Part shown: one piece after another, positions 1,087 to 50,625 of the stretch
How positions within the stretch are numbered: position 1 is the stretch's first letter
Layout of the letters: the number at the start of each line of letters is the position of its first letter
Origin: Candidatus Magasanikiibacteriota bacterium
Lineage (GTDB): Bacteria > Patescibacteriota > Patescibacteriia > Magasanikbacterales > UBA922
NCBI GenBank assembly: GCA_018652595.1
Contig: JABIBU010000001.1
Coordinates: 1 to 54,364 of the forward strand
Direction: 5' to 3'
Length of the DNA: 54,364 nucleotides
The notes under the pieces: generated by a model
Database searches by the model: none
What the model was told of the DNA's origin: nothing
What the model saw: only the letters and a program-made list of their open reading frames with translations
Position numbers and translations under genes: made by a program

Positions 1087-2589
1087 TTATTTTTTCTTGA
1101 TAAAATGGCATCCAATACTTTCTTTTCTGTCTAGTGCTGCTTGGGTAATGAGCATTGCATTTATACACAAGCTTTTTAATTCAATAATTTCCTTACCGAT
1201 ATCTTTTTTATATACCTCCTCTATCTGAGTATTATATTTGTTCAGATTGTCCAGAGTTTGTTTTAGGTTTTTTTGATTTCTGATGATACCTACGTTTTTC
1301 CACATTAATTTTTGTATTTGGTTTTTTATATTTAAAATTTGCCTTGTGTTTGGCGAGCACACCCCAGTATTTCGTGACTTTTCATTCTCAATAGGGGATT
1401 TCTTATTCTTCTTTACATACTCTTTTGCGGATTCAATAGCTTTGGAACTAAAAACCATACATTCTAGTAGGGAATTAGAAGCTAAACGATTGGCACCATG
1501 AACCCCAGTATGGGCTACTTCTCCAAAGGCAAAAAGTCCAGGAATATTTGTTTCACCTTTTAAATTGGTGTGTACACCTCCACAGACAAAGTGAGCGGCT
1601 GGGGAAATTGGAATTAGGTCGCGATCTATTTTTATACCATGCCACCATAGGTTTTCAAAAAGATATGGAAAACGTTTTTTTATAAAACTGCTACCTTTGT
1701 GTCTGATATCCAAAAATACTTTTCCATTTTTTAGTTCTTCAAAAATAGCTCGAGAAACAATATCACGAGGAGCCAAATCAGCAAGCTTGTGATATTTTGA
1801 CATGAATTTTTCTCCTTTATCATTTACCAAAAAACCACCCTCACCACGAACAGTTTCCGATATTAGTAAAGCCGGTTTATTTTTTTTATCCAATGCTGTC
1901 GGGTGAAATTGAATAAATTCCATACCTCTAATTTCTGCACCAGCCTCGTGTGCCATGGCGACCCCGTCTCCTGTGGCAATTTTTGGGTTTGAATTGCGCA
2001 AATATACCTGTCCTGCTCCACCAGTGGCTAAGATTGTGGCTTTTGCAGAAAAATTTAATATTTTATTTTGTTCAGTATCTAAAACTAGTGTTCCTATACA
2101 TTTTTCGTTCTTTATTAATAGCTTATAAGCCAAGTGTGATTCAAAAATATTTATATTTTTGTTGTGCCTTACTTGGTGGATCAGCGCTCGTTCTATTTCT
2201 TTTCCAGTAGTGTCGTGAGAGTGGGCGATTCTTTTTGCGCTATGGCCCCCTTCTTTGCTTAGGCAAAGCTTGTCTTGTTTTTTGCTAAAGCCAACACCTA
2301 GATCGATTAGGCGCTTTATCTCTTTTGGGGCTTGTTTTATCATTAGTTCCACTGCTTTTTTGTTATTCAAATTGCAACCTGCCTTTAGTGTGTCCTCAAT
2401 GTGTTTATCAAAGCTGTCATACTTATCAAGTACAGCTGCGATACCACCCTGGGCATAGTTGGAATTACTTTCCATTAATTCTTTTTTGGTGACAATAGCG
2501 ACGGTTCCATATTTACTAGCTTGCAAAGCAAAATTAAGCCCAGCGATACCGGAGCCTATTACGAGGAAGTCATAATTAAATTCGTTCAT
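1087..2589 (-). CDS. nadB: L-aspartate oxidase
   Basis: GSGIAGL FAD motif, SNYAQGGIAA, EGGHS, QFHPT, LAPRDIVSRAI, HGANRLASNSLLE; lies in a nad operon. Confidence 0.96.
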   Translation of the reverse strand: MNEFNYDFLVIGSGIAGLNFALQASKYGTVAIVTKKELMESNSNYAQGGIAAVLDKYDSFDKHIEDTLKAGCNLNNKKAVELMIKQAPKEIKRLIDLGVGFSKKQDKLCLSKEGGHSAKRIAHSHDTTGKEIERALIHQVRHNKNINIFESHLAYKLLIKNEKCIGTLVLDTEQNKILNFSAKATILATGGAGQVYLRNSNPKIATGDGVAMAHEAGAEIRGMEFIQFHPTALDKKNKPALLISETVRGEGGFLVNDKGEKFMSKYHKLADLAPRDIVSRAIFEELKNGKVFLDIRHKGSSFIKKRFPYLFENLWWHGIKIDRDLIPISPAAHFVCGGVHTNLKGETNIPGLFAFGEVAHTGVHGANRLASNSLLECMVFSSKAIESAKEYVKKNKKSPIENEKSRNTGVCSPNTRQILNIKNQIQKLMWKNVGIIRNQKNLKQTLDNLNKYNTQIEEVYKKDIGKEIIELKSLCINAMLITQAALDRKESIGCHFIKKK

Positions 2590-2680
2590 ATCCGTCTAAT
2601 CAGTTTGATTCGTGTATCTATTTGGTAGATTGTTTAATAGATACACGGATTCAACAGATATAACGGATTAGAACTAATTT
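2590..2680. repeat. Intergenic imperfect palindrome (ATCCGT...GTGTATCTA / TAGATACAC...ACGGAT), related to 53061-53172
   Basis: Inverted arms are visible, and the same blocks recur in rearranged order at about 53061-53172. Confidence 0.7.
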
Positions 2681-3544
2681 TTATAAAATATTTAAAGAAA
2701 TGTCCAAAGACTTAACTGAATGCGTCAAACTACCCAAAGAAATAATATCAACACCAGTCTTTTGGTATTCACGAATATTTTTTTCTGTTATTCCACCAGA
2801 TGCTTCTATAATGATGTCCGGATTTGTTTTTTTGATCTGCTTTATTATTTTTTTGATCTTTTCTGGTCTCATATTGTCTAGCATTATTGCACCAGGATTT
2901 AGTTTGGCGAATTCAAAAACCTGTTTTTCTGTCTTACACTCTATTTCGTAGAAAGAAGTTATGGGTTTTAGGTTATGGGTTTTAGTATTGGCGATGTGAT
3001 TGTCTTTTATCAAGATCCAGTCGTAGAGTCCTAGTCTGTGTGTTCCACCACCACCGAGTGCCACAGCTTTTTTGTCTAAGAGCCCCCATTGTGTTTTGCG
3101 AGTAGAGCAGAGGAGGGGGTTGTTTTTAGTTATGAGTTTATTAGTCTGTGTTGCAATTCCAGACATTCGTTGAAGAATATTTAAGATAGTTCGTTCTAGT
3201 TTTAATATGTCTTTGATTTTTCCTGATAGCTTAATTATTTTTTCATTCTTTTTAATTTTCTGCCCATCTTTTTTATAGGTTTTAGGTTTTAGGTTGTAGG
3301 TATTTAGGATGCTTTCAACTTCTTCTAATCCAGCCAAAATACAGTTTTCTTTGACGGTGATGATTGCTGTAACTTTTGGATTGGATTTTATAATGGTGTC
3401 TGTTGTGATATCACCCTTGGTATCTAAATCTTCTTGTAGCATAAAATCTACCAACCATTTTACTTGGGTGTTATATTTTTTATTTTTGAGAGACAATTTT
3501 TCTTTTTGATTGAAATATTTTTTTATGGTTTGATTTTTGGTCAT
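2681..3544 (-). CDS. nadC: Quinolinate phosphoribosyltransferase (carboxylating nicotinate-nucleotide diphosphorylase)
   Basis: EDL..GDITT, ERTILN.LQRMSGIAT, STRKT, HRLGLYD.ILIKDNH, IMLDN, EASGGIT, GSLTHS. Confidence 0.96.
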   Translation of the reverse strand: MTKNQTIKKYFNQKEKLSLKNKKYNTQVKWLVDFMLQEDLDTKGDITTDTIIKSNPKVTAIITVKENCILAGLEEVESILNTYNLKPKTYKKDGQKIKKNEKIIKLSGKIKDILKLERTILNILQRMSGIATQTNKLITKNNPLLCSTRKTQWGLLDKKAVALGGGGTHRLGLYDWILIKDNHIANTKTHNLKPITSFYEIECKTEKQVFEFAKLNPGAIMLDNMRPEKIKKIIKQIKKTNPDIIIEASGGITEKNIREYQKTGVDIISLGSLTHSVKSLDISLNIL

Positions 3545-21265: not shown

Positions 21266-22369
21266 ATGATAGTAGGTATTGATGCATCACGAGCAAACGA
21301 CGATAAAAAGACTGGCGTAGGCTGGTATGCATACCATACAATTCAAGAGTTTAAGAAAATAATACCCGACAATGTTCGGGTTGTTTTATATTCTAGAGAA
21401 AAATTAAAAGGTGAGTTGGCAATATTACCAGAAAATTGGGAAAGCAAAGTTTTGAAATGGTTACCAGGAAGACTGTGGACACAATTTAGACTGAGTCTCG
21501 AAATGCTTGTTTCTGCGCCTGATCTTTTATTTATTCCTGCTCATGTCTTTCCAATTATCCATCCCAAAAAAACTGTTATGGCACTGCATGATATTGCAGC
21601 CGTTAAGTTTCCAGAAGCTTACAATTGGTTTGAAAGGTGGTATACATTGTGGAGCGGAAGAGTTGCTTTGAAAAAATTATGGAGAGTAATTACAATAAGT
21701 CAATTTACAAAAAATGAATTAAAAAATGAATTTGGTGCTACAAATTTGGAAAAAGTAAAAATAACATATCTTGGCTATAATAAAGAGTGCGAAGAGATAG
21801 TAGAAAATGGTGTTGAAGTATTAAAGAAATATAAAATTGAAAAACCTTATTTGCTTTCAATTGGGAGATTGGAAGAGAAAAAGAATACAGTGAGGATAGT
21901 TAAAGCTTTTGAAAAAATAAAAAATAGACCCCAGACCCCAGACCCCAGACTCCAATTAGTTTTGGTAGGGTTAGAAGGCTTTGGTTATGAAAAAGTAAAA
22001 GATGTAATTGAAAATAGTGCATATAAAGACGATATTATTGTTCTGGGTTGGGTAGAAAATCAAGATTTACCAGCTTTGATGCAAAGTGCGGGTGTGTTTG
22101 TTTTTCCAAGTCTGTACGAAGGTTTTGGGATCCCTGTTTTGGAGGCTTTTGTATCTGGAACGCCAGTTGTGGCTTCTTCTGGCGGAGCTTCGCAAGAGAT
22201 AGGGGGAGATGCTTGTGAATATGTGGATCCGATGAGTGTAGGTGATATTGTCAGAGGGGTTGAAAAGGCTATACAGGGAAATAATATAGAAAAAGGAAAA
22301 GAGCGAGTGAAAAATTTTAGTTGGGAAAAGTGTGCTAGGGAAACATGGGAAGTTTTGAATTCTAACTAG
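21266..22369 (+). CDS. Glycosyltransferase family 4 (GT-B)
   Basis: Likely start is ATG 21266 (MIVGIDAS); TGVGWY, LHD, GRLEEKKN, FPSLYEGFGIPVLEA, FSWEKCA. Confidence 0.92.
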   Translation: MIVGIDASRANDDKKTGVGWYAYHTIQEFKKIIPDNVRVVLYSREKLKGELAILPENWESKVLKWLPGRLWTQFRLSLEMLVSAPDLLFIPAHVFPIIHPKKTVMALHDIAAVKFPEAYNWFERWYTLWSGRVALKKLWRVITISQFTKNELKNEFGATNLEKVKITYLGYNKECEEIVENGVEVLKKYKIEKPYLLSIGRLEEKKNTVRIVKAFEKIKNRPQTPDPRLQLVLVGLEGFGYEKVKDVIENSAYKDDIIVLGWVENQDLPALMQSAGVFVFPSLYEGFGIPVLEAFVSGTPVVASSGGASQEIGGDACEYVDPMSVGDIVRGVEKAIQGNNIEKGKERVKNFSWEKCARETWEVLNSN

Positions 22370-40810: not shown

Positions 40811-41346
40811 TCCCCTCCTTTTCAAGGAGGGGTAATACATGAGCCCGAGCAAAGCGAAGAGGTGATTGAGGGGGTGGTTATAACGCTATATTAGCTATGT
40901 CAAAAATATTCAATCAAAAAAGACAAAAGCATTTGAGGAAAGAATTACGAGGAACTCTGGTAAAAAGTGAGGCTGCTCTTTGGAAGAAGTTACGTGGTAG
41001 TCAGATAGGTTTTAAATTTCGTCGCCAGCATGGTATTTGGCCTTATATTGTAGATTTTTATTGTCCCAGGGTTAAATTGGTTGTGGAAATTGATGGCTAT
41101 ACTCACATTGATGAAGAAGATTATAAAGAAGATTTAAAAAGAGAAAAATATTTAAGATCTTTGGATCTGAATATAAAAAGATACTCCAGTGGTTTTGTGT
41201 TGAAAAACATAAAAGAAACCTGCTTTGATATTTATGGTAAGTGTGTGGAGCTTAAAGGTGATTCTGAGTACACCACCCCGCCACTTCGTGTGCGCCCCTC
41301 CTCCGAAAGGAGGGGGCAAATATAATATTACCCTTCGTAAGGGGGA
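40811..41346 (+). mobile_element. DUF559 nuclease gene bracketed by inverted CCCCTCC..GGAGGGG palindromes
   Basis: Left end tcccctccttttcaaggagggg...ggggtggt; right end accacccc...cccctcctccgaaaggagggg. Confidence 0.6.
40897..41325 (+). CDS. DUF559 / Vsr-like endonuclease
   Basis: R..LR......E..LW..LR, KFRRQH.I.PYIVDFYC, LVVEIDG..H. Confidence 0.92.
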   Translation: MSKIFNQKRQKHLRKELRGTLVKSEAALWKKLRGSQIGFKFRRQHGIWPYIVDFYCPRVKLVVEIDGYTHIDEEDYKEDLKREKYLRSLDLNIKRYSSGFVLKNIKETCFDIYGKCVELKGDSEYTTPPLRVRPSSERRGQI

Positions 41347-41378: not shown

Positions 41379-44300
41379 ATGAACAAAAAAAGGGGGAATA
41401 TTTTTGGTATAAGTTTGGGTATTATAATTGTTTTATTTTTGGGCACTATTACTATTCGTAATAGTGTTTTTTCTTATGACACAACAGTAGCCCATCCTAA
41501 TATTGTGGACCTGGCTGCTAAAGTTTATAATGAGGATTCTTTTGAGAAATTGACTGATCAGCAAATTACTTGGATGAGACAAGGTGCAGAAGATGAGGAT
41601 ATGCCGATTCGATGGATGAATCATTTTTATGATCCAGTTTATAATGTTGGTTTTAAGTCATCATACCTAACTGCAAAAGATTGGTCAGGGGCTAGTGAAA
41701 AACAGCGCGATTATTCTCTAGGTGACAAATCATGGCAAAGAGCAATAAGTGATTATCAAGATGGTAATAGCGAGGAAGCTTTTCAGGCTTTGGGCCATGT
41801 CTTACATCTTATAGCTGATATGAGTGTGCCTGCACATACTCGCGATGATGCTCATCCAGAGGGAGATTCGCTGGAGCAGTTTATAAAATACAATTGGGAT
41901 ATTTTGTACGCTGGGTTGCAAGAAATTGATATGGATTTAACTTATTATTCTAGATTGGATTATTATTTTGATAATTTGGCAAATTATTCTAATAATAATT
42001 TTTATAGCGATGATACTATTGAAAGCGATAAATATAAGAACATAATTATTGATTATTATAATGAAAAAATTAATGATAATGGTAATAGTATTATATTGGC
42101 AATTTCTGATCAAGATATTTATGCCCATGTACAGCGAGGTACTTTGTGGAAAGGTGATTTGGAAAAGAGCTTAAAAAACCAAATAGTCCTAGCCGACTAC
42201 ACTAAACACCTCCTTCCAAAAGCAGTTAGTCATAGTGCTGGTGTTATAAAGTTATTTTTTAAAGAAGTAGAAAAGGAGCATGATTTTGATTTGAATAAAA
42301 ATAAAATTAGTTTTGTCGGTAAAATGGGAAATATGCTTGGTTGGGGAGTAGAAAAATTAGCTGGTCTTAAGCAATATTTTGGTGGTGGAAAAGAAGTGGT
42401 AAGAGCAGATGAAAATACTGTTTTGTCGGTAATGAATCCAGGCTCCGCTAAAGCTATGCCGGACAAGGTGATTACGAAAGAGATAGATGTCGTAGAACCA
42501 ATTTACTACGGACCACCAAAGCCAACAATTGTTTATACCGCTCTAGAACCGGAAATCGAGGTAAAAGAGCCGGAAGCGCTAGTAAACATTCCAGTACCAC
42601 CAAGTTTTCCTAAGATTGATATCGAGACAGAAATAGTAGTGGATGCGGAAGTGATTGACGAAGTGGAGGAAAACGAGGTTGTTGAAGAGAAAAAAGTTTA
42701 TCATTATGGAGGTGGTGGAGGATATTCTGCTCCAGTAGTCGAACCAGACACAGAACCAGTTCTTGATCCTATAACACCAACATCTACATCCACTAGCACG
42801 CCTTCAGATGATGGAGAGGGATCAAGTGATGGTGGGGAGGAAGATGAGGAAGTTGTAACTTCTACTTTACCAACTATTCAGATAACCAGTCATCAGGCTT
42901 CAAGTTATACCAATGTAACATCTACAATTATTACAGGTACTAGTAGTGAAAGCATGGTGCGAGTTTTTATAAATACCAGCACAGTAGAGGTAGGTACCAG
43001 TTCTACCTGGCAAGTGGAAGTTGATTTAGTAGAAGGAGAAAATAGTTTTGAAATTTTTGGAGAAGATAGTGTTGAATTACGGAGTGTTACTAGTACAATA
43101 GAAATTATTTTGGATACCACTGCGCCAGAAGTTTTGAGTGTTGAAACAGCGCAGACTGAGTTTGCTACACCGACAATCCGAGTTAGTTGGATTGTTGAGG
43201 ATGTGGGTGTAGGTATATCTTATTATGATTTGGAATATAATACAGATTCTGGTGATTGGTTAGGGTTGGCAACTAGCACCACCAGTACGACCTATGATTT
43301 TATTGGTGAAAATTTACACGAGTATAATTTCCGTATTAAGGCTTATGACAGTTTTGATTATGTATCTGAGTGGGTTACAAGTAGTTCAACTCTTACTGAT
43401 TGGCCTAAGAGTGTAGTTGTTAATGAAATCGCTTGGATGGGTACTTCTGTGGCAAAGACTTCAGATGAGTGGTTGGAATTATACAATAATACTGATGAAA
43501 CGATTGACCTGACTGGTTGGAGAATATTGGTTTCTGGCGATGAGATAAATTGGGATAATACGGATCATGTTATTCCAGCCAAAGGTTATTATTTATTAGA
43601 GAGAAGCGATGATGATACTGTTTTTGGTGTTGATGCAGATGGTATTTTTACTTTATCTGGTGGATTAGGTAACAGCGGAGAGAATGTAGTTCTCATGAAC
43701 AGTGTTAGTTCTACTATAGATCAGGTTGATTGCTCTTCTGGTTGGTTTGCAGGTGTTACAAATAATGGTTATCGCTCCATGGAGCGTTTGAATCCGAGTG
43801 ACCCTGGTAGTATAAGTGGTAATTGGCAAACCAGTGAGTCGGTCGCGCCAAAAGGAAGACCATATGGCGGAGATGTTATTTATGGCTCTCCAGGCTACCA
43901 GAATACTGCTTATTGGTTTCTAAAAGGTGATCTAAGCTTCCATTATGCAGATTTGATAGTTGATAACAAATTAACTCTAACTAAGGCTAGCAGTCCTTAT
44001 TTAATAGATTATTCAACTGAAATTCTAGGTGGTTTGAAAGTAGAAGTAGAGCCAGGAGTGGTTTTGATGGGAATAGATAGGAGTTCTTATATTAATATAA
44101 AAGGCGATTTGATTTTAAATGGTACAGCAGAGGATCCGATTATATTTACCTCAGCTTTGGATACAAATTATGTTCAACAAAATTTAACAACTTTGACTGA
44201 TGAAACTCCACAGGCGGGTGATTGGTCGAGAATTGAAATAGAAGAAGGTGGTAGTCTGCAGGCTGAGAGTGTTAAGTTTTTTTATGGTGGGCAGACTTTT

Positions 44301-45320
44301 ACAAAAGGAACAGGGTGGGTTTATGGTACCAAGTGGATATCCCAGGTTTTGCGTAATACTGGTGGCACAGCTAATTTGAATAATGTTGAATTTGCGAATA
44401 ATTATATTGATGGAGTAAATCCAGATTACAATACAGTTGTTTGGGTCGAGGCACCTCTGGGCTATAGCGCTAGCACTACGATTGAAAATAGTATTTTGGA
44501 TGCAGGTTACACAGCTGTTAATTTTTATGGACAAAATAATGGACAGACAGTTTCGGGTGTCCTTGAGAATAATGTATTGAAAAACTTTACTGATCCAGAA
44601 GCAATTATAAAGGTTAGTAATAGTGAACCAAAGATTAATGGTAATTTTTTAGAAAATAACACAAGTGATTATATTGATATGGGTGGTTTTGTCTTGAGCA
44701 GTGACTTTACTTTGAAGCAAGATCAAAAATATTTATTTTCTAATATTGAAGTGCCCGTGGACAAGATATTAACAATTGAACCAGGGGTTGATGTTAAATT
44801 GAGTGGCTATATAAAAGTAGATGGTAGTCTACAAGCCAATGGCGAAGTAGGTAATCCAATCAATTTTATACCTAGAGATAATTATTGGAATATAATGTTG
44901 TTTAATAATTCTAGCTCTAGTTTGTCTAACGTAAATATAACAAGGGGTAATGGTGGTGGAGGACTGCGCGCCCCAAACAAGCGCGGTATGGTGACTGCTG
45001 AAAATTCAACTGTCAGTTTTGATAGTGTTAATTTTATGGATGCAGAACGACCATATAATATGCTTTATCTAGAAAATTCAGATATAAATATCAAAGATAG
45101 CATCATTTCATGGACAGACAACTACACCGGATCAAAAAATATCGATGGAATAATGTTTAAGAGTGGAAAACTACATTTAGATAGCGTGACTTTTAATAAT
45201 ATGAAGCGAGGAGTTGAGATTATGAGTGGGGGAGTAATAACTATGGATAATATGAATCTCGGCCACTTCCAAAACATAGCAGACCTAAACTGGTGGCCGG
45301 CGAGTGCTCTGAGCATGTAA
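41379..45320 (+). CDS. Large surface protein: Zn phospholipase C/P1-nuclease-like domain, linker, Ig/FN3, lamin-tail domain, beta-helix
   Basis: N-terminal TM; H...EDED...NHFYDP and LGHVLHLIADMSVPAHTRDDAH...E; VVNEIAWMG...EWLELYN...IDLTGW (lamin-tail domain); GTAEDPIIFTS repeats. Confidence 0.8.
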   Translation: MNKKRGNIFGISLGIIIVLFLGTITIRNSVFSYDTTVAHPNIVDLAAKVYNEDSFEKLTDQQITWMRQGAEDEDMPIRWMNHFYDPVYNVGFKSSYLTAKDWSGASEKQRDYSLGDKSWQRAISDYQDGNSEEAFQALGHVLHLIADMSVPAHTRDDAHPEGDSLEQFIKYNWDILYAGLQEIDMDLTYYSRLDYYFDNLANYSNNNFYSDDTIESDKYKNIIIDYYNEKINDNGNSIILAISDQDIYAHVQRGTLWKGDLEKSLKNQIVLADYTKHLLPKAVSHSAGVIKLFFKEVEKEHDFDLNKNKISFVGKMGNMLGWGVEKLAGLKQYFGGGKEVVRADENTVLSVMNPGSAKAMPDKVITKEIDVVEPIYYGPPKPTIVYTALEPEIEVKEPEALVNIPVPPSFPKIDIETEIVVDAEVIDEVEENEVVEEKKVYHYGGGGGYSAPVVEPDTEPVLDPITPTSTSTSTPSDDGEGSSDGGEEDEEVVTSTLPTIQITSHQASSYTNVTSTIITGTSSESMVRVFINTSTVEVGTSSTWQVEVDLVEGENSFEIFGEDSVELRSVTSTIEIILDTTAPEVLSVETAQTEFATPTIRVSWIVEDVGVGISYYDLEYNTDSGDWLGLATSTTSTTYDFIGENLHEYNFRIKAYDSFDYVSEWVTSSSTLTDWPKSVVVNEIAWMGTSVAKTSDEWLELYNNTDETIDLTGWRILVSGDEINWDNTDHVIPAKGYYLLERSDDDTVFGVDADGIFTLSGGLGNSGENVVLMNSVSSTIDQVDCSSGWFAGVTNNGYRSMERLNPSDPGSISGNWQTSESVAPKGRPYGGDVIYGSPGYQNTAYWFLKGDLSFHYADLIVDNKLTLTKASSPYLIDYSTEILGGLKVEVEPGVVLMGIDRSSYINIKGDLILNGTAEDPIIFTSALDTNYVQQNLTTLTDETPQAGDWSRIEIEEGGSLQAESVKFFYGGQTFTKGTGWVYGTKWISQVLRNTGGTANLNNVEFANNYIDGVNPDYNTVVWVEAPLGYSASTTIENSILDAGYTAVNFYGQNNGQTVSGVLENNVLKNFTDPEAIIKVSNSEPKINGNFLENNTSDYIDMGGFVLSSDFTLKQDQKYLFSNIEVPVDKILTIEPGVDVKLSGYIKVDGSLQANGEVGNPINFIPRDNYWNIMLFNNSSSSLSNVNITRGNGGGGLRAPNKRGMVTAENSTVSFDSVNFMDAERPYNMLYLENSDINIKDSIISWTDNYTGSKNIDGIMFKSGKLHLDSVTFNNMKRGVEIMSGGVITMDNMNLGHFQNIADLNWWPASALSM

Positions 45321-45347
45321 CATATAACATGACCTTCCTAAAGGAGG

Positions 45348-45454
45348 GTTTTTTTGTACTTGACATTTTGGGGAAAATGGTATAGTATGTTTATTATGTT
45401 CTATTTACCTGAGTCCATGATGGGCGAAGGTTTTTCACTGAAGGGGGAAGTTCG
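45348..45454 (+). promoter_or_regulatory. Cassette 1 promoter, leader hairpin and RBS
   Basis: TTGACA-N17-TATAGT, acct-gagtccatgatgggcga-aggt hairpin, AAGGGGG; homologous to 45909-46013. Confidence 0.75.
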
Positions 45455-45769
45455 ATGACAAAGAGTGCACATGTGTTTAGGCTCCGGGAAGGAGTCGAAG
45501 TGGAAATTCCCAGGTGGATGTTCTTTACGGAGGCGAAGGAGCCTGATGCCGAGGGTGGTATCACCCCGATGATCACGCGTATCAAGGGTGTCGGCGGGGG
45601 CAAATTCACCTTCCGATCCATGTCGGAACTCGATCCGAGTGACGATGACCTGACTGGGATCGTGGGGTTCATCCCGCGTTTCGCCCCAGGTGACATTCTC
45701 GTGCTCAACCGTGTGGAGGTTGGTGGAGAGAAGGGGATCCGCAACTTGCGCTTCCTGCCCAAGACCTAG
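45455..45769 (+). CDS. Orphan protein (cassette 1 cargo)
   Basis: Promoter and RBS upstream; GC-rich relative to the window; ends ACC TAG within the shared trailer. Confidence 0.7.
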   Translation: MTKSAHVFRLREGVEVEIPRWMFFTEAKEPDAEGGITPMITRIKGVGGGKFTFRSMSELDPSDDDLTGIVGFIPRFAPGDILVLNRVEVGGEKGIRNLRFLPKT

Positions 45770-45915
45770 AGACGCTCGTCTCTCAAGCTCGTCCGGGCTA
45801 GGTTTCATCCGTTCATTAAGTAGTAGGAGGATAGGAGGTGGTCTTTGAGCCCAAGGCTCACTGTGTCCACCTCCTGAAATTGATTTTTTTATTCCACCTG
45901 AGAGGTGGTTTTTTT
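45763..45915 (+). repeat. Structured 3' trailer copy 1 (98 bp identical to copy 2) plus terminator
   Basis: 45801-45898 equals 46561-46658; aggaggtgg/ccacctcct stem with inner tgagcc/ggctca hairpin. Confidence 0.92.
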
Positions 45916-46013
45916 GTACTTGACTTTTTGAAAAAAATAGTGTAGTATATTTGCTATGCTATGTTTACCTAAGCCTATGGTGGGTGAAGGTTTTTTTCAA
46001 GGGGGTTTCTTTT
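45909..46013 (+). promoter_or_regulatory. Cassette 2 promoter, leader hairpin and RBS
   Basis: TTGACT-N17-TGTAGT, acct-aagcctatggtgggtga-aggt hairpin, AAGGGGG. Confidence 0.7.
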
Positions 46014-46526
46014 ATGCCGATGAGAAATTTGGAGAATTGTTTGATTGCGTTTGAGTTCGGAACTGTAGAAGTCGGGTTCTGGAAGGGGGGTCGGGTTCGT
46101 GCTCTCAAGTCTGCATTCGTCGCTTGGGAGATGAGAAAAACGGAGATTCCGGAGGTTCCCATTTCTCCGGCACTCGGTGGTAAGGGATATTACACCCCGA
46201 TCGAGAATGTCCTCTGGGACAATCACGATGTCCTCAATGGGCAGTTCGGTTATCCCAAGGGGTTCGTTGCCATTCAGGCTTTTCAGCAGGAGGGTGGTTG
46301 CTCTTGCGGCTTCCCCGGTGCTGGATGCGGTGGTGGTGGTTGCGACGACTGCAACTGCGATCCATCTGTGGAGTTCGTCTCCACCGAGTCGAGTCATCGC
46401 GATGATGGTCCATGCGATGGGTGTGTGGCATGTCATGGTGGCGATGATTGTCCATGCGATGGGTGCGTCGATGACTTCTGTTCTGAGTGTGCTCACAATG
46501 TCCCGCAGCAGTCTGCTACGACCTAG
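46014..46526 (+). CDS. Orphan protein with a Cys/Asp/Gly-rich metallothionein-like C-terminus (cassette 2 cargo)
   Basis: Likely start ATG 46014 after AAGGGGG; CSC, CDDCNC, PCDGCVACH, CPCDGC and CSEC. Confidence 0.7.
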   Translation: MPMRNLENCLIAFEFGTVEVGFWKGGRVRALKSAFVAWEMRKTEIPEVPISPALGGKGYYTPIENVLWDNHDVLNGQFGYPKGFVAIQAFQQEGGCSCGFPGAGCGGGGCDDCNCDPSVEFVSTESSHRDDGPCDGCVACHGGDDCPCDGCVDDFCSECAHNVPQQSATT

Positions 46527-46673
46527 AGACATTTCGTCTCTCCTGTCCATCTCTGGGCTGGGTTTCATCCGTTCATTAAGTAGTAGGAGGATAGGAGGTG
46601 GTCTTTGAGCCCAAGGCTCACTGTGTCCACCTCCTGAAATTGATTTTTTTATTCCACCAATAGGTGGTTTTTT
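46520..46673 (+). repeat. Structured 3' trailer copy 2 plus terminator
   Basis: Direct repeat of 45763-45915; the identical core is offset by 760 bp. Confidence 0.92.
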
Positions 46674-46735
46674 GATATTTGAATTAAACATCAAAAAATG
46701 TTAGTATATAGTCATGAATATTAATAAATAAATAT

Positions 46736-48259
46736 ATGAAAAAAGGTCTAATATCCTTAATTTTGGTAACCTTTGTTTTTGCTCCGGTTCTTGCATTGGC
46801 TCAAGCGGAGACTGCATTTGATGAGATACCAGAAGAAGAAAAAATGATTGAACCGATTATTACAGCAGAGGAATTTGTTCGAGTGGACAAGAAGCTTATT
46901 TTGGATGCATTTCAGTCTTTGGTAAACAAAGATATTTCTGGGACCGCTATATATACTTGGCAGTTTGGTGATGGTTTTTATGAATCAGCTGAGCAGGTCG
47001 TACATCAGTATTCAAAAGTTGGTACATATACTATCACCCTTACCATGAGACAGGGTGAGGAGACAGAAGAGGTGACAAAGGATATCTTTGTTTATGATAA
47101 AAAAGCCTTGCTCGTAACAGACAAATCAAAGGAAGAGGAGTTGACACTAATAGATGAGCAAGCCAGAGAGAACGGTGTAGGTTTGCAGACCTTGTCACTG
47201 CTCTCAAAGGACGGTGGTTTTTTGGCTGAAGATAAATTATTACAACAAATTAATGAACTAAGCGATTATATAAATGATTCGGACTTGCTGATCTTTTATA
47301 GTAGGTCCGCTACTGGTTTGCAGGTTTTTAGTCGGTTTTTTCAGGGTCTAAAGGCGGAAGACAAAAAAATTATTGCCAATAAATTTATTACTGTTTTGAC
47401 CGATACCAGTATGGATGTGACAGGTAATTTTGCATATCAGGCTTTCAAAATTATTCAACCAGATTTTATACTCCTTAGTCGTCCAGAGGCTTTTGGTCCG
47501 CTTTTTTCAGAAAAAGATTATGATGCTCTGCCTGACATCTTGCGTAGTCGAGGAGTAGAGTATAGGATGGTAGATGAAAAAGAAGAAAAAAATCCAGTAT
47601 TTGTCTTTTCTCATCTTAGTACTTGGCTTTTGAGTCGTGGTATTACACCTAGTACTATTTATTTGATACTGATGATTCCTTTCCTTAGTTTTTTTGTGAT
47701 ATTTTTTAGACAAGTCGTGGGTTTGAGTACATTTGGTGTGTATACCCCAATTATGATAGTGGCATCGTTTTTTATTCTAGGTATCGCATTGGGGCTTATC
47801 ACTTTTCTTTTTGCTGTAGTAACTAGTTATGCTGTGAAGCATATTATTAATAAATTTGATTTATTATATTTACCAAAAGTTGGTTTGAATCTGAGTGTTG
47901 TGTCCCTTTCATTTTTGTTGGTAATAGTTTTGGCAATTTTACTTGATTTCAATGTCTCCTTTTCTTTGGCAATATTCCCGATGCTTGTGATGTCCAATGT
48001 GGCAGAAAAGTTTATGGCAGCGCAGACCGAAGAAGGTTTTCGCGGAGCTTTGTTTGGTGTAATTGAGACTTTGGTGGTAGTGGTGGTATCATACTATATT
48101 ATAATCTGGCATTATTTTAATAATCTTATAATGTCTTGGCCAGAGCTTATACTGTTGCCAATGCTTTTGACTTTGCTTTTGGCCAAGTTTAGTGGTCTTA
48201 GACTTAGTGAGTATTTACGCTTTAGAAGCTTATTTTCTGAACACGCAGAAGAAGAATAA
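46736..48259 (+). CDS. PKD-domain protein with a C-terminal 7TM (7TM_transglut-like) domain
   Basis: Signal peptide, YTWQFGDG..HQY...GTY (PKD); RQVVGLSTFGVYTP, IFPMLVMS..AEKF, GLRLSEYLRFR. Confidence 0.85.
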   Translation: MKKGLISLILVTFVFAPVLALAQAETAFDEIPEEEKMIEPIITAEEFVRVDKKLILDAFQSLVNKDISGTAIYTWQFGDGFYESAEQVVHQYSKVGTYTITLTMRQGEETEEVTKDIFVYDKKALLVTDKSKEEELTLIDEQARENGVGLQTLSLLSKDGGFLAEDKLLQQINELSDYINDSDLLIFYSRSATGLQVFSRFFQGLKAEDKKIIANKFITVLTDTSMDVTGNFAYQAFKIIQPDFILLSRPEAFGPLFSEKDYDALPDILRSRGVEYRMVDEKEEKNPVFVFSHLSTWLLSRGITPSTIYLILMIPFLSFFVIFFRQVVGLSTFGVYTPIMIVASFFILGIALGLITFLFAVVTSYAVKHIINKFDLLYLPKVGLNLSVVSLSFLLVIVLAILLDFNVSFSLAIFPMLVMSNVAEKFMAAQTEEGFRGALFGVIETLVVVVVSYYIIIWHYFNNLIMSWPELILLPMLLTLLLAKFSGLRLSEYLRFRSLFSEHAEEE

Positions 48260-48261
48260 TT

Positions 48262-50625
48262 ATGAAAAAGATATCCTTTATAGAAAAAGCTAGTGGAATA
48301 TTGGGAATGAACGCCCGTAATCTTTTGTATGTGGGTAGATACAATACTCGTGCGAGTAAAAAATTTGCGGATGATAAAATCTTTACAAAAAACTATCTTA
48401 ACTCTCGTGGAGTGGGTGTGGCTAAGATCTTTAATATAATCAAGAACCATAAGGAGCTCAGGACTTTTGATCCAAAAAGTTTACCAGATAGTTTTGTGAT
48501 AAAACCAAATCGTGGTTTTGGGGGAGAGGGAATAACCGTTATTGGTTCAAAAAAGGGAAATAAGTTTGTTAGCGTTAATGGTATTGAATATACTTGGCGT
48601 GATTTGTATCGTCAGCTCATTGCAATTTTGGATGGTAAGTACGCTATATCTGGTCTGTCCGATCAGGTCATTATAGAAGAGATGCTTATAATGCATGATA
48701 GTTTCAAGCGATTTACTTCGGTAGGTTTGCCTGATGTGCGTATTATCGTTTTCAACTATGTACCTATTATTGCAATGTTGCGTTTGCCTACAGAGGAGTC
48801 TGGTGGAAAAGCAAATCTGCATATGGGTGCAGTGGGTGTTGGAATTGATATTGCCACTGGCAAGGCTACATATGCTGTCCAGCGTAACAAATTTATTCAT
48901 CGCCTGCCAAATGGTGAAAAAATACGCGATATTCAGGTTCCCAATTGGAATGAGGTTTTGTTGACCGCTGCTCGAGCTCAGCATGCTAGTCAGATTGGTT
49001 TTTTGGCAGTCGACATTGTTATTACCACGACTGGTGTAAAAATTTTGGAACTCAATGCTAGGGCAGGACTTTCGGTACAGATTGCAAATCAGATTCCATT
49101 AAAAGCCAGACTAAAAAAGGTAGCAGATCTAAAAGTGCCTAGCCCAGAAAAAGGGGTAGAGGTCAGCAAGACCTTGTTTAGCTCTAATTTGCCAGAAGAA
49201 AAAAAAGAAGAAAAAAAAGAAGACAAGCCAACCATAGGGCTTTTTGAGTATATCAATGTCTTGAATACAAAGCATAAAAATTTGCTCGCAAAAATTGATC
49301 CTCATGCAGAAGATTCTTATCTAGATGATAGGTTTGATAATATAAAAAGTAAGGCTGGTTTTGTAGATATAAAAATGAAGCAAAGGAGAATTACTCTACC
49401 GCTAAAGTTCAAAGATCTGCAATCAGAAAAAGCCGATCTTATTATTGCTGGACGACATTTGACCGACTTTGTAATTGATCTAAATTTGAAGCAACCTCCG
49501 AAATTAAAAATAACAAATAAAAAAACAGACGAAGGTGCAGATGAAAAGATGATTCAAAATATTGATAAAAAGATTTTTGAGATTGAGAGTAAAATAAATA
49601 CAATTGGTGCTATTAGGCCGACTAATTTGGATCAGGAAAAAGCAAACTTTTTGGCAGACCCTACCAAGTCGCCAGTGTTTTTTTATAAAAAACCAGTAGA
49701 GAGTATTGAACAGCACAAACGCGAATTAAAGTCATTGCCTAGAGAGATTGATCATCCGCTGGCAAAAATTTATTTGAAAAAAATAGATGAAGTTAGAGCT
49801 AAATTGGATTTGATGGAAGCTGTGGATTCATCTAGATTCCAAGCTATTTCAGAGCGCCTTTATGGTAAGGCCGATAAACTGCTTTATGATAAGGCGGTTC
49901 GTTATATTCATGACAACCCTATTGAAGTAGATGAAAGCAAGATGTTAAGTACAAAAATAATTATAAAGCGGTTGGAGAAATTTTTAAAGGACAAAAAATT
50001 ATCAAAATGGAAATTGGTTTTGCGCGAAGATGCTACAGCTGATATAGCCGTTAATAAGAGTGGTACTATATTTTTGAGAGACGGGGTAGAATTTAGTGAA
50101 AATAGACTAAAGGCTATTATCGCTCATGAAATAGAGACTCATGTCTATCGATTGGAAAATGGACGCGAACAAAAGTATAAGATTTTTGAAAAAGGAACTG
50201 CGGGGTACCTTACTACCGAAGAAGGGTTGGCAATTTATAATCAAAAACAGTTGGGTATTCCTTTGGGTGAAAAAGATATTTGGCCAGCCTTGCGCGTGAT
50301 TGGGGCTTATTTGGCGGATGAGATGAGTTTTGTAGACTTGTTTCACTATATGAAGGAACACTATAGTTTGGATGATGAGTCGGCGTGGAAGACATGTGTA
50401 AAAGCAAAGAGAGGATTATCAGACACTTCGCAAAAACAAGCTTTTACCAGAGATGTAATTTATTTCCGTGGATTTTTGGCTGTGACAGAGTATTTGAAGC
50501 AAAATCCAGAAGAGGGGTTACACAACTTATATATTGGAAAGCTTGCTATAGTTGATCTACAGCTTTTGGGTGATTTGAAGGAGTATAAGGTGAAGTATAT
50601 GCCAGAAGAGATATTGAAGGAGTAG
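48262..50625 (+). CDS. ATP-grasp peptide ligase (alpha-L-glutamate ligase-like) fused to a degenerate aspartyl-protease-like domain and a DUF1704/MATCAP-like metallocarboxypeptidase
   Basis: ILGMNARN, ADDK, FVIKPN.G.GGEGI, PDVRIIV, AMLRLPT..S.GKANLH.GA, LELNAR.GL..QIAN; IG..E...AKID; AHEIETH...N and TEEGLA, FTRD..Y.RG. Confidence 0.85.
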   Translation: MKKISFIEKASGILGMNARNLLYVGRYNTRASKKFADDKIFTKNYLNSRGVGVAKIFNIIKNHKELRTFDPKSLPDSFVIKPNRGFGGEGITVIGSKKGNKFVSVNGIEYTWRDLYRQLIAILDGKYAISGLSDQVIIEEMLIMHDSFKRFTSVGLPDVRIIVFNYVPIIAMLRLPTEESGGKANLHMGAVGVGIDIATGKATYAVQRNKFIHRLPNGEKIRDIQVPNWNEVLLTAARAQHASQIGFLAVDIVITTTGVKILELNARAGLSVQIANQIPLKARLKKVADLKVPSPEKGVEVSKTLFSSNLPEEKKEEKKEDKPTIGLFEYINVLNTKHKNLLAKIDPHAEDSYLDDRFDNIKSKAGFVDIKMKQRRITLPLKFKDLQSEKADLIIAGRHLTDFVIDLNLKQPPKLKITNKKTDEGADEKMIQNIDKKIFEIESKINTIGAIRPTNLDQEKANFLADPTKSPVFFYKKPVESIEQHKRELKSLPREIDHPLAKIYLKKIDEVRAKLDLMEAVDSSRFQAISERLYGKADKLLYDKAVRYIHDNPIEVDESKMLSTKIIIKRLEKFLKDKKLSKWKLVLREDATADIAVNKSGTIFLRDGVEFSENRLKAIIAHEIETHVYRLENGREQKYKIFEKGTAGYLTTEEGLAIYNQKQLGIPLGEKDIWPALRVIGAYLADEMSFVDLFHYMKEHYSLDDESAWKTCVKAKRGLSDTSQKQAFTRDVIYFRGFLAVTEYLKQNPEEGLHNLYIGKLAIVDLQLLGDLKEYKVKYMPEEILKE

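What the first reader, a model, noticed from the sequence alone, without database searches (positions are those of the whole stretch)
45348..46673. Tandem expression cassettes: same promoter/leader and trailer, different cargo ORF
Seen: two adjacent units share the layout tttttttgtacttgac promoter, leader hairpin (tttacct.ag.c.atg.tggg.gaaggtttt, pairing retained despite substitutions), AAGGGGG RBS, ORF ending ACC TAG, agagac/gtctct hairpin, 98 identical bp and a ccacc/ggtgg terminator. The two ORFs (104 and 170 aa) show no similarity I can detect. Homology stops near the start codon and resumes at the last codon. Inference: a gene-capture or cargo-swapping system distinct from integrons, or extremely rapid ORF turnover inside a conserved regulatory shell.
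Basis: partly seen in the sequence, partly recalled or inferred. Interest (0 to 1): 0.82.

Follow-up and report, generated by a model that had tools for sequence, protein, structure and literature searches.

The report
Split gene sharing duplicated regulatory flanks
Two neighbouring small genes in a tiny uncultured marine bacterium share almost the same control sequences because they are most likely the two complementary halves of one older gene that was duplicated and then trimmed differently in each copy, not cargo of a gene-capture system.

Summary
Two tandem promoter-to-terminator units (window 45347-45906 and 45907-46666) share a promoter, leader hairpin, ribosome-binding site, last codon plus stop, and a 107-nt trailer. 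Their GC-rich ORFs (104 and 170 aa) show no mutual similarity.

The ORFs are not unrelated cargo. A 247-aa metagenomic protein (P0004) contains the ORF2 N-terminal domain, then an ORF1-like domain, then the ORF2 cysteine-rich tail. ORF1 and ORF2 are therefore complementary pieces of one protein family.

My best reading (0.6) is gene fission by duplication followed by complementary in-frame deletions. Both copies kept the ancestral untranslated regions, and the trailer was later homogenised by gene conversion.

Both ORFs are real genes. ORF1 has dN/dS 0.16 against a syntenic orthologue, and ORF2 has 40-51% identical relatives. I found no recombinase and no further copies of the shell in this genome. 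The leader matched in 0 of 239 other genomes of the order.

Some cargo turnover does occur. The syntenic relative carries a different ORF in slot 2, and one other genus has the trailer's stop-codon junction behind an unrelated ORF.

Earlier follow-ups in this scan had already noted the wider class of GC-rich accessory units in this genome. Interest is moderate.

The parts
45331..45350 (+). Intrinsic terminator of the upstream 1313-aa surface-protein gene. Its T-run is where the first repeat unit begins.
   Evidence: conserved in L036
45360..45388 (+). Promoter 1 (TTGACA-17-TAGTAT), preceded by a T-run from 45349
   Evidence: 84% identical to promoter 2 and 81% to the L036 orthologue; same promoter type found in front of tRNA and rpmH genes in relatives
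45407..45431 (+). Leader hairpin 1 (4+5 base pairs with an internal loop), followed by a U-run. It could be a 5' stabiliser or an attenuator.
   Evidence: 9 pairs, 2 with compensatory double changes, 0 broken across 3 sequences; also flagged as terminator-like
45441..45447 (+). Shine-Dalgarno-like AAGGGGG, 7 nt before the ATG
   Evidence: sequence; such motifs are rare in the low-GC genes of this genome
45455..45769 (+). ORF1, 104 aa: domain B of the composite family
   Evidence: GC 57%, GC3 0.69; orthologue in L036 with dN/dS 0.16; 41% identical to P0004 residues 78-171, E 8e-18
45764..45803 (+). Three-way RNA junction that encloses the last codon ACC and the stop UAG (P1 ACCUA/UAGGU, P2 GAGAC/GUCUC, P3 GCUCG/CGGGC)
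   Evidence: compensatory changes in P2 and P3; homologue in G022
45792..45898 (+). Trailer core, copy 1 (107 nt, 98% identical to copy 2). It contains the AGGAGG-rich stretch and long hairpin T1 (about 45833-45875) followed by a U-run.
45894..45908 (+). Second terminator (T2) of unit 1. Its U-run is also the T-run of promoter 2.
45920..45948 (+). Promoter 2 (TTGACT-17-TAGTAT)
   Evidence: conserved in L036
45967..45991 (+). Leader hairpin 2
45999..46005 (+). Shine-Dalgarno-like AAGGGGG, 8 nt before the ATG
   Evidence: sequence
46014..46526 (+). ORF2, 170 aa: domain A (about residues 1-77), a linker, then cysteine-rich domain C (about 95-151)
   Evidence: relatives P0004, P0005 and P0006; 51% identical to P0004 residues 3-75 and 186-242
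46521..46563 (+). Three-way junction around ACC-UAG, copy 2
46552..46658 (+). Trailer core, copy 2. This is a probable gene-conversion tract: 99% identical to copy 1 but 75% to the L036 orthologue.
46654..46667 (+). Second terminator (T2) of unit 2
46679..46707 (+). Promoter 3 (TTGAAT-17-TAGTAT by my reading) in front of the 7TM-transglutaminase-like gene. It is a diverged third copy of the promoter.
   Evidence: sequence; 83% identical to L036. The scan placed two overlapping weaker sites here instead.

Best explanation
The two units are sister transcription units descended from one ancestral gene for a three-part small protein: an N-terminal domain A, a middle domain B and a cysteine-rich tail C. 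The whole unit, from promoter to terminators, was duplicated, most simply in tandem.

The upstream copy then lost A and C by in-frame deletions, leaving ORF1 (B only). The downstream copy lost B, leaving ORF2 (A plus C). Both copies kept the ancestral parts:
- promoter
- leader hairpin
- ribosome-binding site
- first 1-3 codons
- last codon and stop
- structured 3' untranslated region with two terminators

This is why homology stops just after the start codon and resumes just before the stop. The 107-nt trailer core was later made nearly identical by gene conversion.

Each unit works as an independent, strongly transcribed single-gene unit of the GC-rich, Shine-Dalgarno-led accessory class that is scattered through this AT-rich Magasanikbacteria (CPR) genome. 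The organism name comes from earlier notes of this scan.

Shown: the repeats, the coding status of both ORFs, the composite relative, the conserved RNA pairing, and the absence of further shell copies.
Inferred: the direction (fission rather than insertion of B), duplication in place, gene conversion, and that the two products act together.

Biochemical function is unknown. My guess is a non-covalent complex of a small beta-rich domain with a possibly metal-binding cysteine-rich protein.
For: 1. Composite relative. P0004 (247 aa, reported from four sources, on 2 contigs, the longest 176,973 nt) matches three pieces:
   - ORF2 residues 1-77 at its residues 3-75 (51% identity, E 1e-17)
   - ORF1 at its residues 78-171 (41% identity, E 8e-18)
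   - ORF2 residues 95-151 at its residues 186-242 (51% identity, E 1e-13)
   The order A-B-C cannot arise by read-through fusion of a B gene next to an A-C gene.
2. Homology crosses the ORF ends. The ATG of ORF1 aligns with Met3 of ORF2 (CGATGA[C/G]AAA), and both end [A/C]GACCTAG. The L036 orthologue of ORF1 starts M-C-R-N against M-R-N at residues 3-5 of ORF2.
3. Both ORFs are genes. ORF1 against L036 gives dN 0.205, dS 1.31, ratio 0.16. ORF2 domain A is 40-51% identical to three other protein clusters.
4. The shell is old, apart from the trailer core:
   - leader: G000 unit 1 vs unit 2, 71%; unit 1 vs L036, 68%
   - stop hairpin: unit 1 vs unit 2, 69%; unit 1 vs L036, 86%
   - trailer core: unit 1 vs unit 2, 99%; unit 1 vs L036, 75%
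5. The leader and trailer RNA structures are kept through compensatory changes: 2 of 9 and 6 of 42 pairs.
6. No mobility machinery among the 15 proteins scanned in window 36.7-54.2 kb, and no further copies of the shell in the genome.
7. [quoted passage not shown] 2004).
Against: - Direction is not shown. Only one composite cluster (P0004) is known, against three A-C clusters (ORF2, P0005, P0006) and two B-only clusters. Insertion of B into an A-C gene in the P0004 lineage is therefore possible.
- I could not obtain DNA for P0004, P0005 or P0006, so I do not know whether they carry the same untranslated regions.
- L036 has the B-only unit but no A or C in slot 2 in any frame. That needs an extra replacement event, and it means B can persist without an adjacent A-C gene.
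- A visual remnant of B in the ORF2 linker (PKGFVAIQA against PYGMFATSA) got no support from a B profile: ORF2 was not reported, and 1,000 shuffled ORF2 sequences scored up to 6.6 bits.
- The trailer's junction also occurs behind an unrelated ORF in G022. The trailer can therefore be paired with other cargo.
- With 35-63 nt per segment, the identities cannot date the duplication.
Confidence: 0.6

Rival explanations
1. Reusable expression shell with cargo exchange. The leader hairpin, ribosome-binding site, stop-codon junction and double terminator form a module that persists while ORFs between them are replaced by recombination. ORF1 and ORF2 would be two such fillings, and P0004 a later domain insertion.
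For: - L036 keeps promoter 2 and a similar ribosome-binding-site context, but has a different 94-aa basic ORF and a different trailer in slot 2.
- G022, a different genus, has the stop-codon junction (about 70% identical; full-trailer model R2, built without G022, E 7e-4 per genome) 17 nt after the stop of an unrelated 146-aa ORF with a hydrophobic, signal-peptide-like N-terminus. There the former TAG reads CAG.
- A-C architectures without B outnumber A-B-C.
Against: - It is very unlikely that two random fillings would both be parts of one composite protein when that family has only six clusters among 5.8 billion proteins.
- The leader matched in 0 of 239 other genomes of the order.
- The junction model R3 found only the sequences it was built from in 107 family genomes, plus two weak matches at E 0.007 and 0.07.
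- An exact-pattern scan of the species-genome collection found only G022.
- In L036 the two units share nothing but the generic promoter.
- No recombinase was found nearby.
Confidence: 0.17
2. Independent arrival. The B-only gene and the A-C gene each came by horizontal transfer or islet replacement from relatives. Each brought the family's own untranslated regions, and the trailer was later converted. The shell still descends from one source, but there was no duplication in place.
For: - Slot 2 differs between G000 and L036 while promoters 2 and 3 are conserved. That fits replacement of whole units by recombination in conserved flanks.
- G088 has the downstream operon without any GC-rich unit.
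- The GC-rich units are a scattered accessory class in this genome.
Against: - It needs two acquisitions of the same very rare family at adjacent positions.
- No donor was found. P0004-like genes were not found in 239 other genomes of the order (one weak Cys-rich match in G174), in the species-genome collection or in IMG/VR.
Confidence: 0.15
3. Assembly artefact. The repeat was wrongly resolved and the two units are not adjacent, or one unit belongs to another strain.
For: - The public-run contigs (k=31) break at the 98-nt repeat and cannot bridge it.
- One low-depth contig in run X7 joins the tail of unit 1, through the repeat, to the sequence downstream of unit 2.
Against: - Unique parts have equal depth (12.2-12.9) and the repeat unitig has depth 27 in X1.
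- L036 independently shows trailer 1 running directly into promoter 2.
- The two trailer copies have different flanks on both sides in the 54-kb contig.
- ORF1 and ORF2 each list a longest contig of 10,502 nt in the protein collection. This hints at one shared contig in another assembly but does not show it.
Confidence: 0.04
4. The GC-rich inserts are structured non-coding RNAs and the ORFs are incidental open frames in GC-rich DNA.
For: - GC-rich islands in AT-rich genomes are often RNA genes.
- Several frames are open on both strands.
- The unit 2 transcript folds better than shuffled sequence (z = -3.2).
Against: - dN/dS of 0.16 for ORF1.
- Protein-level relatives at 40-51% identity, with conservative substitutions.
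- GC by codon position 0.58/0.43/0.69 for ORF1.
- A ribosome-binding site at the correct distance from each ATG.
- No Rfam match.
Confidence: 0.02

Closest known systems
Gene fission by duplication-degeneration (subfunctionalisation model; Wang, Yu and Long 2004, seen only as cited in a passage and the reference list of PMC6442393)
   Same: A composite gene is duplicated and each copy loses complementary parts. The two daughter genes keep homologous non-coding flanks and termini but share no coding similarity.
   Different: This case is in a bacterium with about 1 Mb of genome. The split is not collinear: the middle domain ends up in one gene and the two outer domains in the other. The duplicated flanks are complete promoter-to-terminator shells, and one 107-nt tract is kept 98-99% identical. 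The ancestral composite is inferred from a single metagenomic relative rather than observed at this locus.
Phage 'morons' and small accessory islets
   Same: Each unit has its own promoter and terminators and is 57% GC in a 37% GC genome. The units lie between genes that sit next to other neighbours in a relative.
   Different: I saw no phage context: the two ORFs have no PHROGs match and no phage-type families appeared among the neighbours scanned. At least unit 1 is vertically conserved under purifying selection.
Integron gene cassettes
   Different: Every unit has its own promoter. No integrase was found among the proteins scanned. There are only two units, and the repeats are untranslated regions with terminators. 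A formal attC test was not run.
Split/fused gene pairs (Rosetta-stone pairs)
   Same: Two separate neighbouring genes correspond to parts of one fused protein elsewhere, which predicts that they work together.
   Different: The fused form interleaves the parts as A-B-C. Neither simple fusion nor simple splitting by a stop codon can convert one arrangement into the other.

Membership tests
Gene fission by duplication-degeneration | A composite (fused) homologue covers both daughter genes | tested here: met
   P0004 residues 3-75 and 186-242 match ORF2, and residues 78-171 match ORF1
Gene fission by duplication-degeneration | The daughters retain complementary, non-overlapping parts | tested here: met
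   ORF1 against ORF2 by BLASTP gives E=12. Profile comparison of A against B gives probability 0.5%.
Gene fission by duplication-degeneration | The daughters are duplicates, with homologous flanks and termini | tested here: met
   89-nt leader repeat at 81% and 107-nt trailer repeat at 98%. Homology reaches the first about 3 codons and the last 1-2 codons.
Gene fission by duplication-degeneration | The composite state is ancestral | not testable with these tools
   Only six protein clusters are known. No DNA or genomic context could be obtained for P0004, P0005 or P0006.
Gene fission by duplication-degeneration | Both daughters are maintained by selection | tested here: inconclusive
   ORF1 has dN/dS 0.16. 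ORF2 has only distant relatives and no orthologue for a rate test.
Integron cassette array | Adjacent tyrosine-recombinase integrase (IntI) | tested here: not met
   Pfam scan of 15 proteins in window 36.7-54.2 kb found no recombinase. ORFs under 100 aa were not scanned.
Integron cassette array | Promoterless cassettes expressed from a common promoter | tested here: not met
   Each unit has its own consensus promoter and its own terminators
Integron cassette array | attC recombination site at the end of each cassette | not tested
   No attC model was run. The trailer folds as a three-way junction plus two terminators.
Phage moron | Own promoter and terminator, deviant composition, inserted between conserved genes | tested here: met
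Phage moron | Resides in a phage or prophage genome | tested here: not met
   The flanking genes encode a surface protein, a 7TM-transglutaminase-like protein, an ATP-grasp protein, Msr enzymes and similar. The cargo ORFs have no PHROGs match. IMG/VR holds no relative of the family.
Described RNA families (Rfam 15) for the leader or trailer | Match at the gathering score | tested here: not met
   Only tRNAs were found in the window. Nothing better than E=3.9 was found in 45300-46720.

The most novel reading that the evidence does not exclude
The leader hairpin, the three-way junction that encloses the stop codon, and the double terminator together form a heritable, reusable RNA shell for accessory genes of these CPR bacteria. 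ORFs, or single protein domains such as B, would be exchanged in frame within this shell. On this reading ORF1, ORF2, the L036 slot-2 gene, the G022 gene and the interleaved P0004 are all products of one domain- and cargo-shuffling process that uses no dedicated recombinase.
Probability: 0.12. Interest if true: 0.75.

Novelty: new member of a known kind. Interest (0 to 1): 0.42.

Why it matters
This is a clean bacterial example of how a multi-domain gene can be split non-collinearly. The duplicated untranslated regions survive as the evidence of common origin after all coding similarity is gone. It also warns that 'same flanks, unrelated ORFs' need not mean a cassette-exchange system.

Two further points could be followed up:
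- A rare RNA junction that pairs the last codon and the stop codon with downstream sequence is supported by covariation. It is a candidate cis-acting element for translation termination or mRNA stability.
- The pair adds a concrete history to the poorly understood GC-rich, Shine-Dalgarno-led accessory genes of AT-rich CPR genomes.

Tried and rejected
- **Single-sequence AlphaFold2 models** of ORF1 and ORF2 were too poor to use (mean pLDDT 45.1 and 32.0), so I ran no fold search.
- **ESM Atlas with P0004** gave no usable hit. Its own model has pLDDT 0.37 and all TM scores were 0.33 or lower.
- **Complex prediction for ORF2 with ORF1** returned no verdict (score 0.02, mark 0.32). It counts neither for nor against binding.
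- **Family and structure libraries** gave nothing: Pfam, PHROGs and PADLOC for the cargo proteins, and a PDB sequence search with P0004.
- **Are A and B old internal repeats?** One BLASTP sub-hit had E 0.033, but hhalign gave probability 0.5%. A B profile scored no better on A-C proteins than on shuffled sequences. Rejected as unsupported.
- **Is the L036 slot-2 ORF a frame-shifted A-C gene?** tblastn found nothing in any frame, and the ORF has no homologue in the G000 genome.
- **Paralogues of either ORF in the genome:** none.
- **A shared AGGAGGATA..GGTGG terminator motif** occurs in two other GC-rich units, on contigs C4 and C25. Apart from one 15-nt exact match (E 0.002) between unit 2 and the C4 unit, those units share no blastn-detectable similarity with these units or with each other. 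I treat it as a terminator style, not a shared shell.
- **Weak full-trailer model hits** in G034, G045 and G019 (E 1.7e-4 to 0.028 per genome) align mainly over generic terminator hairpins. I do not count them as homologues.
- **RNA data:** no RNA holder listed among the public runs.
- **Parts of the stretch without contig cover** in runs X6-X8 are not interpreted.
- **Rfam on the small promoter-to-terminator unit on contig C25** gave only matches below the gathering scores.
- **Literature:** two full-text searches found no paper on GC-rich Shine-Dalgarno-led units in CPR, nor on this protein family. I read only the listings, plus passages of one paper. I consulted no supplementary files.
Full report
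**Observation**

The window is contig C13 of a 964,590-bp, 27-contig genome, 95% complete and 37.2% GC. Earlier notes of this scan call the organism a Magasanikbacteria (CPR) bacterium.

Between the terminator of a 1313-aa surface-protein gene (LTD domain) and a 7TM-transglutaminase-like gene lie two head-to-tail units, at 45347-45906 and 45907-46666. They share these features:
- An 89-nt promoter/leader block, 81% identical, and a 107-nt trailer block, 98% identical.
- Consensus promoters TTGACA/TTGACT-17-TAGTAT, and CCACC/GGTGG terminators.
- An AAGGGGG ribosome-binding site 7-8 nt before each ATG.
- The ending ACC TAG, followed by an AGAGAC/GTCTCT hairpin.

The ORFs (45455-45769, 104 aa; 46014-46526, 170 aa) show no similarity to each other (E=12). 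They are about 57% GC. Alignment A1 shows that homology fades about three codons after the ATG and returns one or two codons before the stop.

**Assembly**

In run X1 the contigs break at the 98-nt identical core. The unique parts have depth 12.2-12.9 and the 98-nt unitig has depth 27. This fits two copies in one genome, although the contigs do not bridge the repeat.

Pieces 100% identical to the window occur in runs dated 2012, 2016 and 2017. A related contig, L036, independently shows trailer 1 running straight into promoter 2.

One low-depth contig in X7 joins the tail of unit 1, through the repeat, to the sequence downstream of unit 2. It is either a low-coverage graph artefact or a deletion variant made by recombination between the two trailer copies. 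I cannot tell which.

**Is the shell a widespread cassette frame?**

No.
- Leader and trailer each occur twice in the genome and nowhere else there, by BLAST and, for the leader, by covariance model R1.
- Among 107 family genomes (G000 included), a BLASTN search with the whole 1351-nt region gave only 20-61-nt matches in the other 106. These fell on the T-run/promoter stretch, on an AT-rich bit at the start of ORF2, or on the terminator.
- The leader pattern, with up to 3 mismatches, matched 1 of 240 genomes of the order, namely G000 itself.
- The promoter-like matches in relatives sit in front of tRNA genes, rpmH and ordinary genes. The 'tttttttgtacttgac' promoter is therefore the family's generic strong promoter, not a cassette feature.
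- Pfam scans of 15 proteins in window 36.7-54.2 kb found no integrase, transposase or reverse transcriptase.

**The ORFs are real genes**

ORF1 has a 74%-identical relative, P0003. Its contig L036 is syntenic with the window:
- the 3' end of the same surface-protein gene (81.5% nt identity)
- unit 1
- a second unit
- promoter 3
- the 7TM gene (78%)
- the ATP-grasp/MATCAP gene (85%; all identities)

ORF1 against its L036 orthologue gives dN 0.205, dS 1.31 and a ratio of 0.16.

An exhaustive HMMER scan of 1.84 billion representative proteins with ORF2 found only three other clusters: P0004, P0005 and P0006, at 44-52% identity. A profile search of the 5.8-billion-protein collection found the same six clusters in all.

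**The key result**

P0004 (247 aa) aligns to three pieces in turn:
- its residues 3-75 to ORF2 residues 1-77 (51% identity, E 1e-17)
- its residues 78-171 to ORF1 (41% identity, E 8e-18)
- its residues 186-242 to the cysteine-rich part of ORF2 (51% identity, E 1e-13)

If the parts are called A, B and C, then P0004 is A-B-C, ORF2 is A-C, ORF1 is B, and P0005 and P0006 are A plus a short C. The two 'unrelated cargos' are thus complementary pieces of one very rare protein family.

A and B are not detectably homologous to each other (hhalign probability 0.5%).

**Best explanation**

A B gene next to an A-C gene cannot turn into A-B-C by read-through, and A-B-C cannot become B plus A-C by a simple stop/start mutation. 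One explanation accounts at once for the composite relative and for the identical shells: a whole A-B-C transcription unit was duplicated, and complementary in-frame deletions followed. This is the established duplication-degeneration route to gene fission (passage in PMC6442393 citing Wang et al. 2004).

It predicts that homology should include the extreme ends of the coding regions, and it does:
- The ATG of ORF1 aligns with Met3 of ORF2.
- Both ORFs end [A/C]GACCTAG.
- The L036 orthologue begins M-C-R-N, against M-R-N at residues 3-5 of ORF2.

Segment identities are:

| Segment | Unit 1 vs unit 2 | Unit 1 vs L036 orthologue |
|---|---|---|
| Leader | 71% | 68% |
| Stop hairpin | 69% | 86% |
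| 103-nt trailer core | 99% | 75% |

The shells therefore separated about as long ago as the two organisms did, or earlier. The trailer core is the exception, and I read it as recent gene conversion. These segments are short (35-103 nt), so the dating is weak.

**Structure of the shell**

Across the three available leaders, all 9 pairs of the hairpin are kept, 2 of them through changes on both sides. The hairpin is followed by a U-run and was flagged as terminator-like. It could be a 5' stabiliser or an attenuator; that is inference.

In the trailer, RNAalifold predicts 42 pairs, 6 of them with compensatory changes. They form a three-way junction in which the last codon ACC and the first two bases (UA) of the stop codon pair with a downstream UAGGU, followed by a long hairpin with a U-run (T1) and a second terminator (T2). 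This pairing explains why 'ACC TAG' is conserved in all copies.

- In L036, slot 2 holds promoter 2 and a similar ribosome-binding-site context, but also a different 94-aa basic GC-rich ORF and a different trailer. There is no trace of A or C in any frame, and within L036 the two units share only the promoter.
- The trailer model R2 gave weak matches in 4 of 106 other family genomes. Three align mostly over generic terminators. The G022 match reproduces the three-way junction and about 70 nt beyond it. It lies 17 nt after the stop of an unrelated 146-aa ORF with a signal-peptide-like N-terminus, the former TAG reads CAG, and the unit sits inside a small GC-rich islet.
- A model of the junction alone (R3) found nothing further in the 107 family genomes apart from two weak matches at E 0.007 and 0.07. 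An exact-pattern scan of the species-genome collection found only G022.

So cargo does turn over at this locus, and the trailer has met at least one other ORF. But this is rare, and it needs no dedicated capture mechanism.

**Context**

- The genome carries about 20 other GC-rich, single-gene units with a Shine-Dalgarno-like site.
- In a rough count, 14 of 646 low-GC long ORFs have such a site at their first start, against 9 of 19 ORFs with GC of 0.50 or more.
- Earlier follow-ups in this scan (e1-1132874, e1-1268304) described this class on other pieces of the same genome. The pair studied here belongs to it.
- The downstream 7TM/ATP-grasp operon occurs in 2 of the 30 other genomes sampled. 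In G088 no GC-rich unit lies upstream of it, so the units are not an obligatory part of that operon.

**Function**

Function remains unknown. There was no match in Pfam, PHROGs, PADLOC or the PDB, and the structure models were poor. From the fused relative I infer that the two products act together, but this is not shown.

**Verdict**

A gene-capture system is not supported. The most likely reading (0.6) is a non-collinear gene fission that kept duplicated regulatory shells. Cargo exchange within a reusable shell (0.17) and independent arrival of two family members (0.15) are the main rivals.

I class it as a new member of a known kind, of moderate interest. It also yields a small candidate cis-acting RNA element, supported by covariation, around the stop codon.

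Noticed in passing
window 46736-50625: The operon downstream of the units encodes a PKD-domain protein with a 7TM 'inactive transglutaminase' module, and a fusion of a sugar-transfer-type ATP-grasp with a MATCAP-like carboxypeptidase. It occurs in only 2 of the 30 other genomes sampled. A ligase/peptidase fusion hints at a cycle that adds and removes a C-terminal residue; this is speculation, and the target is unknown.
   Followed up: partly
window 45779-45898 joined to 46659-46801 (run X7, record 19): A 263-nt, depth-2.2 contig joins the tail of unit 1, through the trailer repeat, to the sequence downstream of unit 2. This is the product expected if recombination between the two trailer copies deleted unit 2. 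It may equally be a low-coverage assembly-graph artefact.
   Followed up: no
G000 contigs C1, C3, C4, C5, C6, C10, C11, C18, C23, C24, C25, C27 (list): About 20 further islands of 52-60% GC, each 300-900 bp. Each holds one ORF without detected relatives, led by a Shine-Dalgarno-like site and flanked by its own promoter and terminator. Several have lipoprotein-like or signal-peptide-like N-termini. About 7-9 carry an AGGAGG-like motif in the 3' untranslated region (visual count, not tested statistically).
   Followed up: partly
G000 C4 about 900-990 and C25 about 22150-22240 (minus strand): Two unrelated GC-rich units end in terminators of the same design: CCACCYGCGACTCG, a hairpin, then CGAGGAGGATA..GGTGG and a T-run. 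This resembles the AGGAGGATAGGAGGTGG stretch of the trailer studied here. blastn finds no wider similarity, apart from one 15-nt exact match between the C4 unit and unit 2.
   Followed up: partly
G000 C25:27871 to about 28130 (locus L026, about 1500-1760): The same generic promoter drives a stretch of about 200 nt with several hairpins and a terminator but no obvious ORF. It is a candidate small RNA. Rfam gave only matches below the gathering scores.
   Followed up: partly
window 40897-41325: A DUF559 (Vsr-like endonuclease fold) gene lies just upstream of the giant surface-protein gene.
   Followed up: no
L054 (G022 contig) 1486-3520: G022 carries a cluster of three GC-rich units (45-59% GC) in a region of 27-35% GC. 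One of them ends in the homologue of the stop-codon junction. The record title calls this genome Gammaproteobacteria, although genome search places it in the same family as G000.
   Followed up: partly
window 41379-45320: A 1313-aa secreted protein with a phospholipase-C-like N-terminus, a lamin-tail domain and S/T-rich linkers. Its C-terminal 466 residues are conserved in L036.
   Followed up: no
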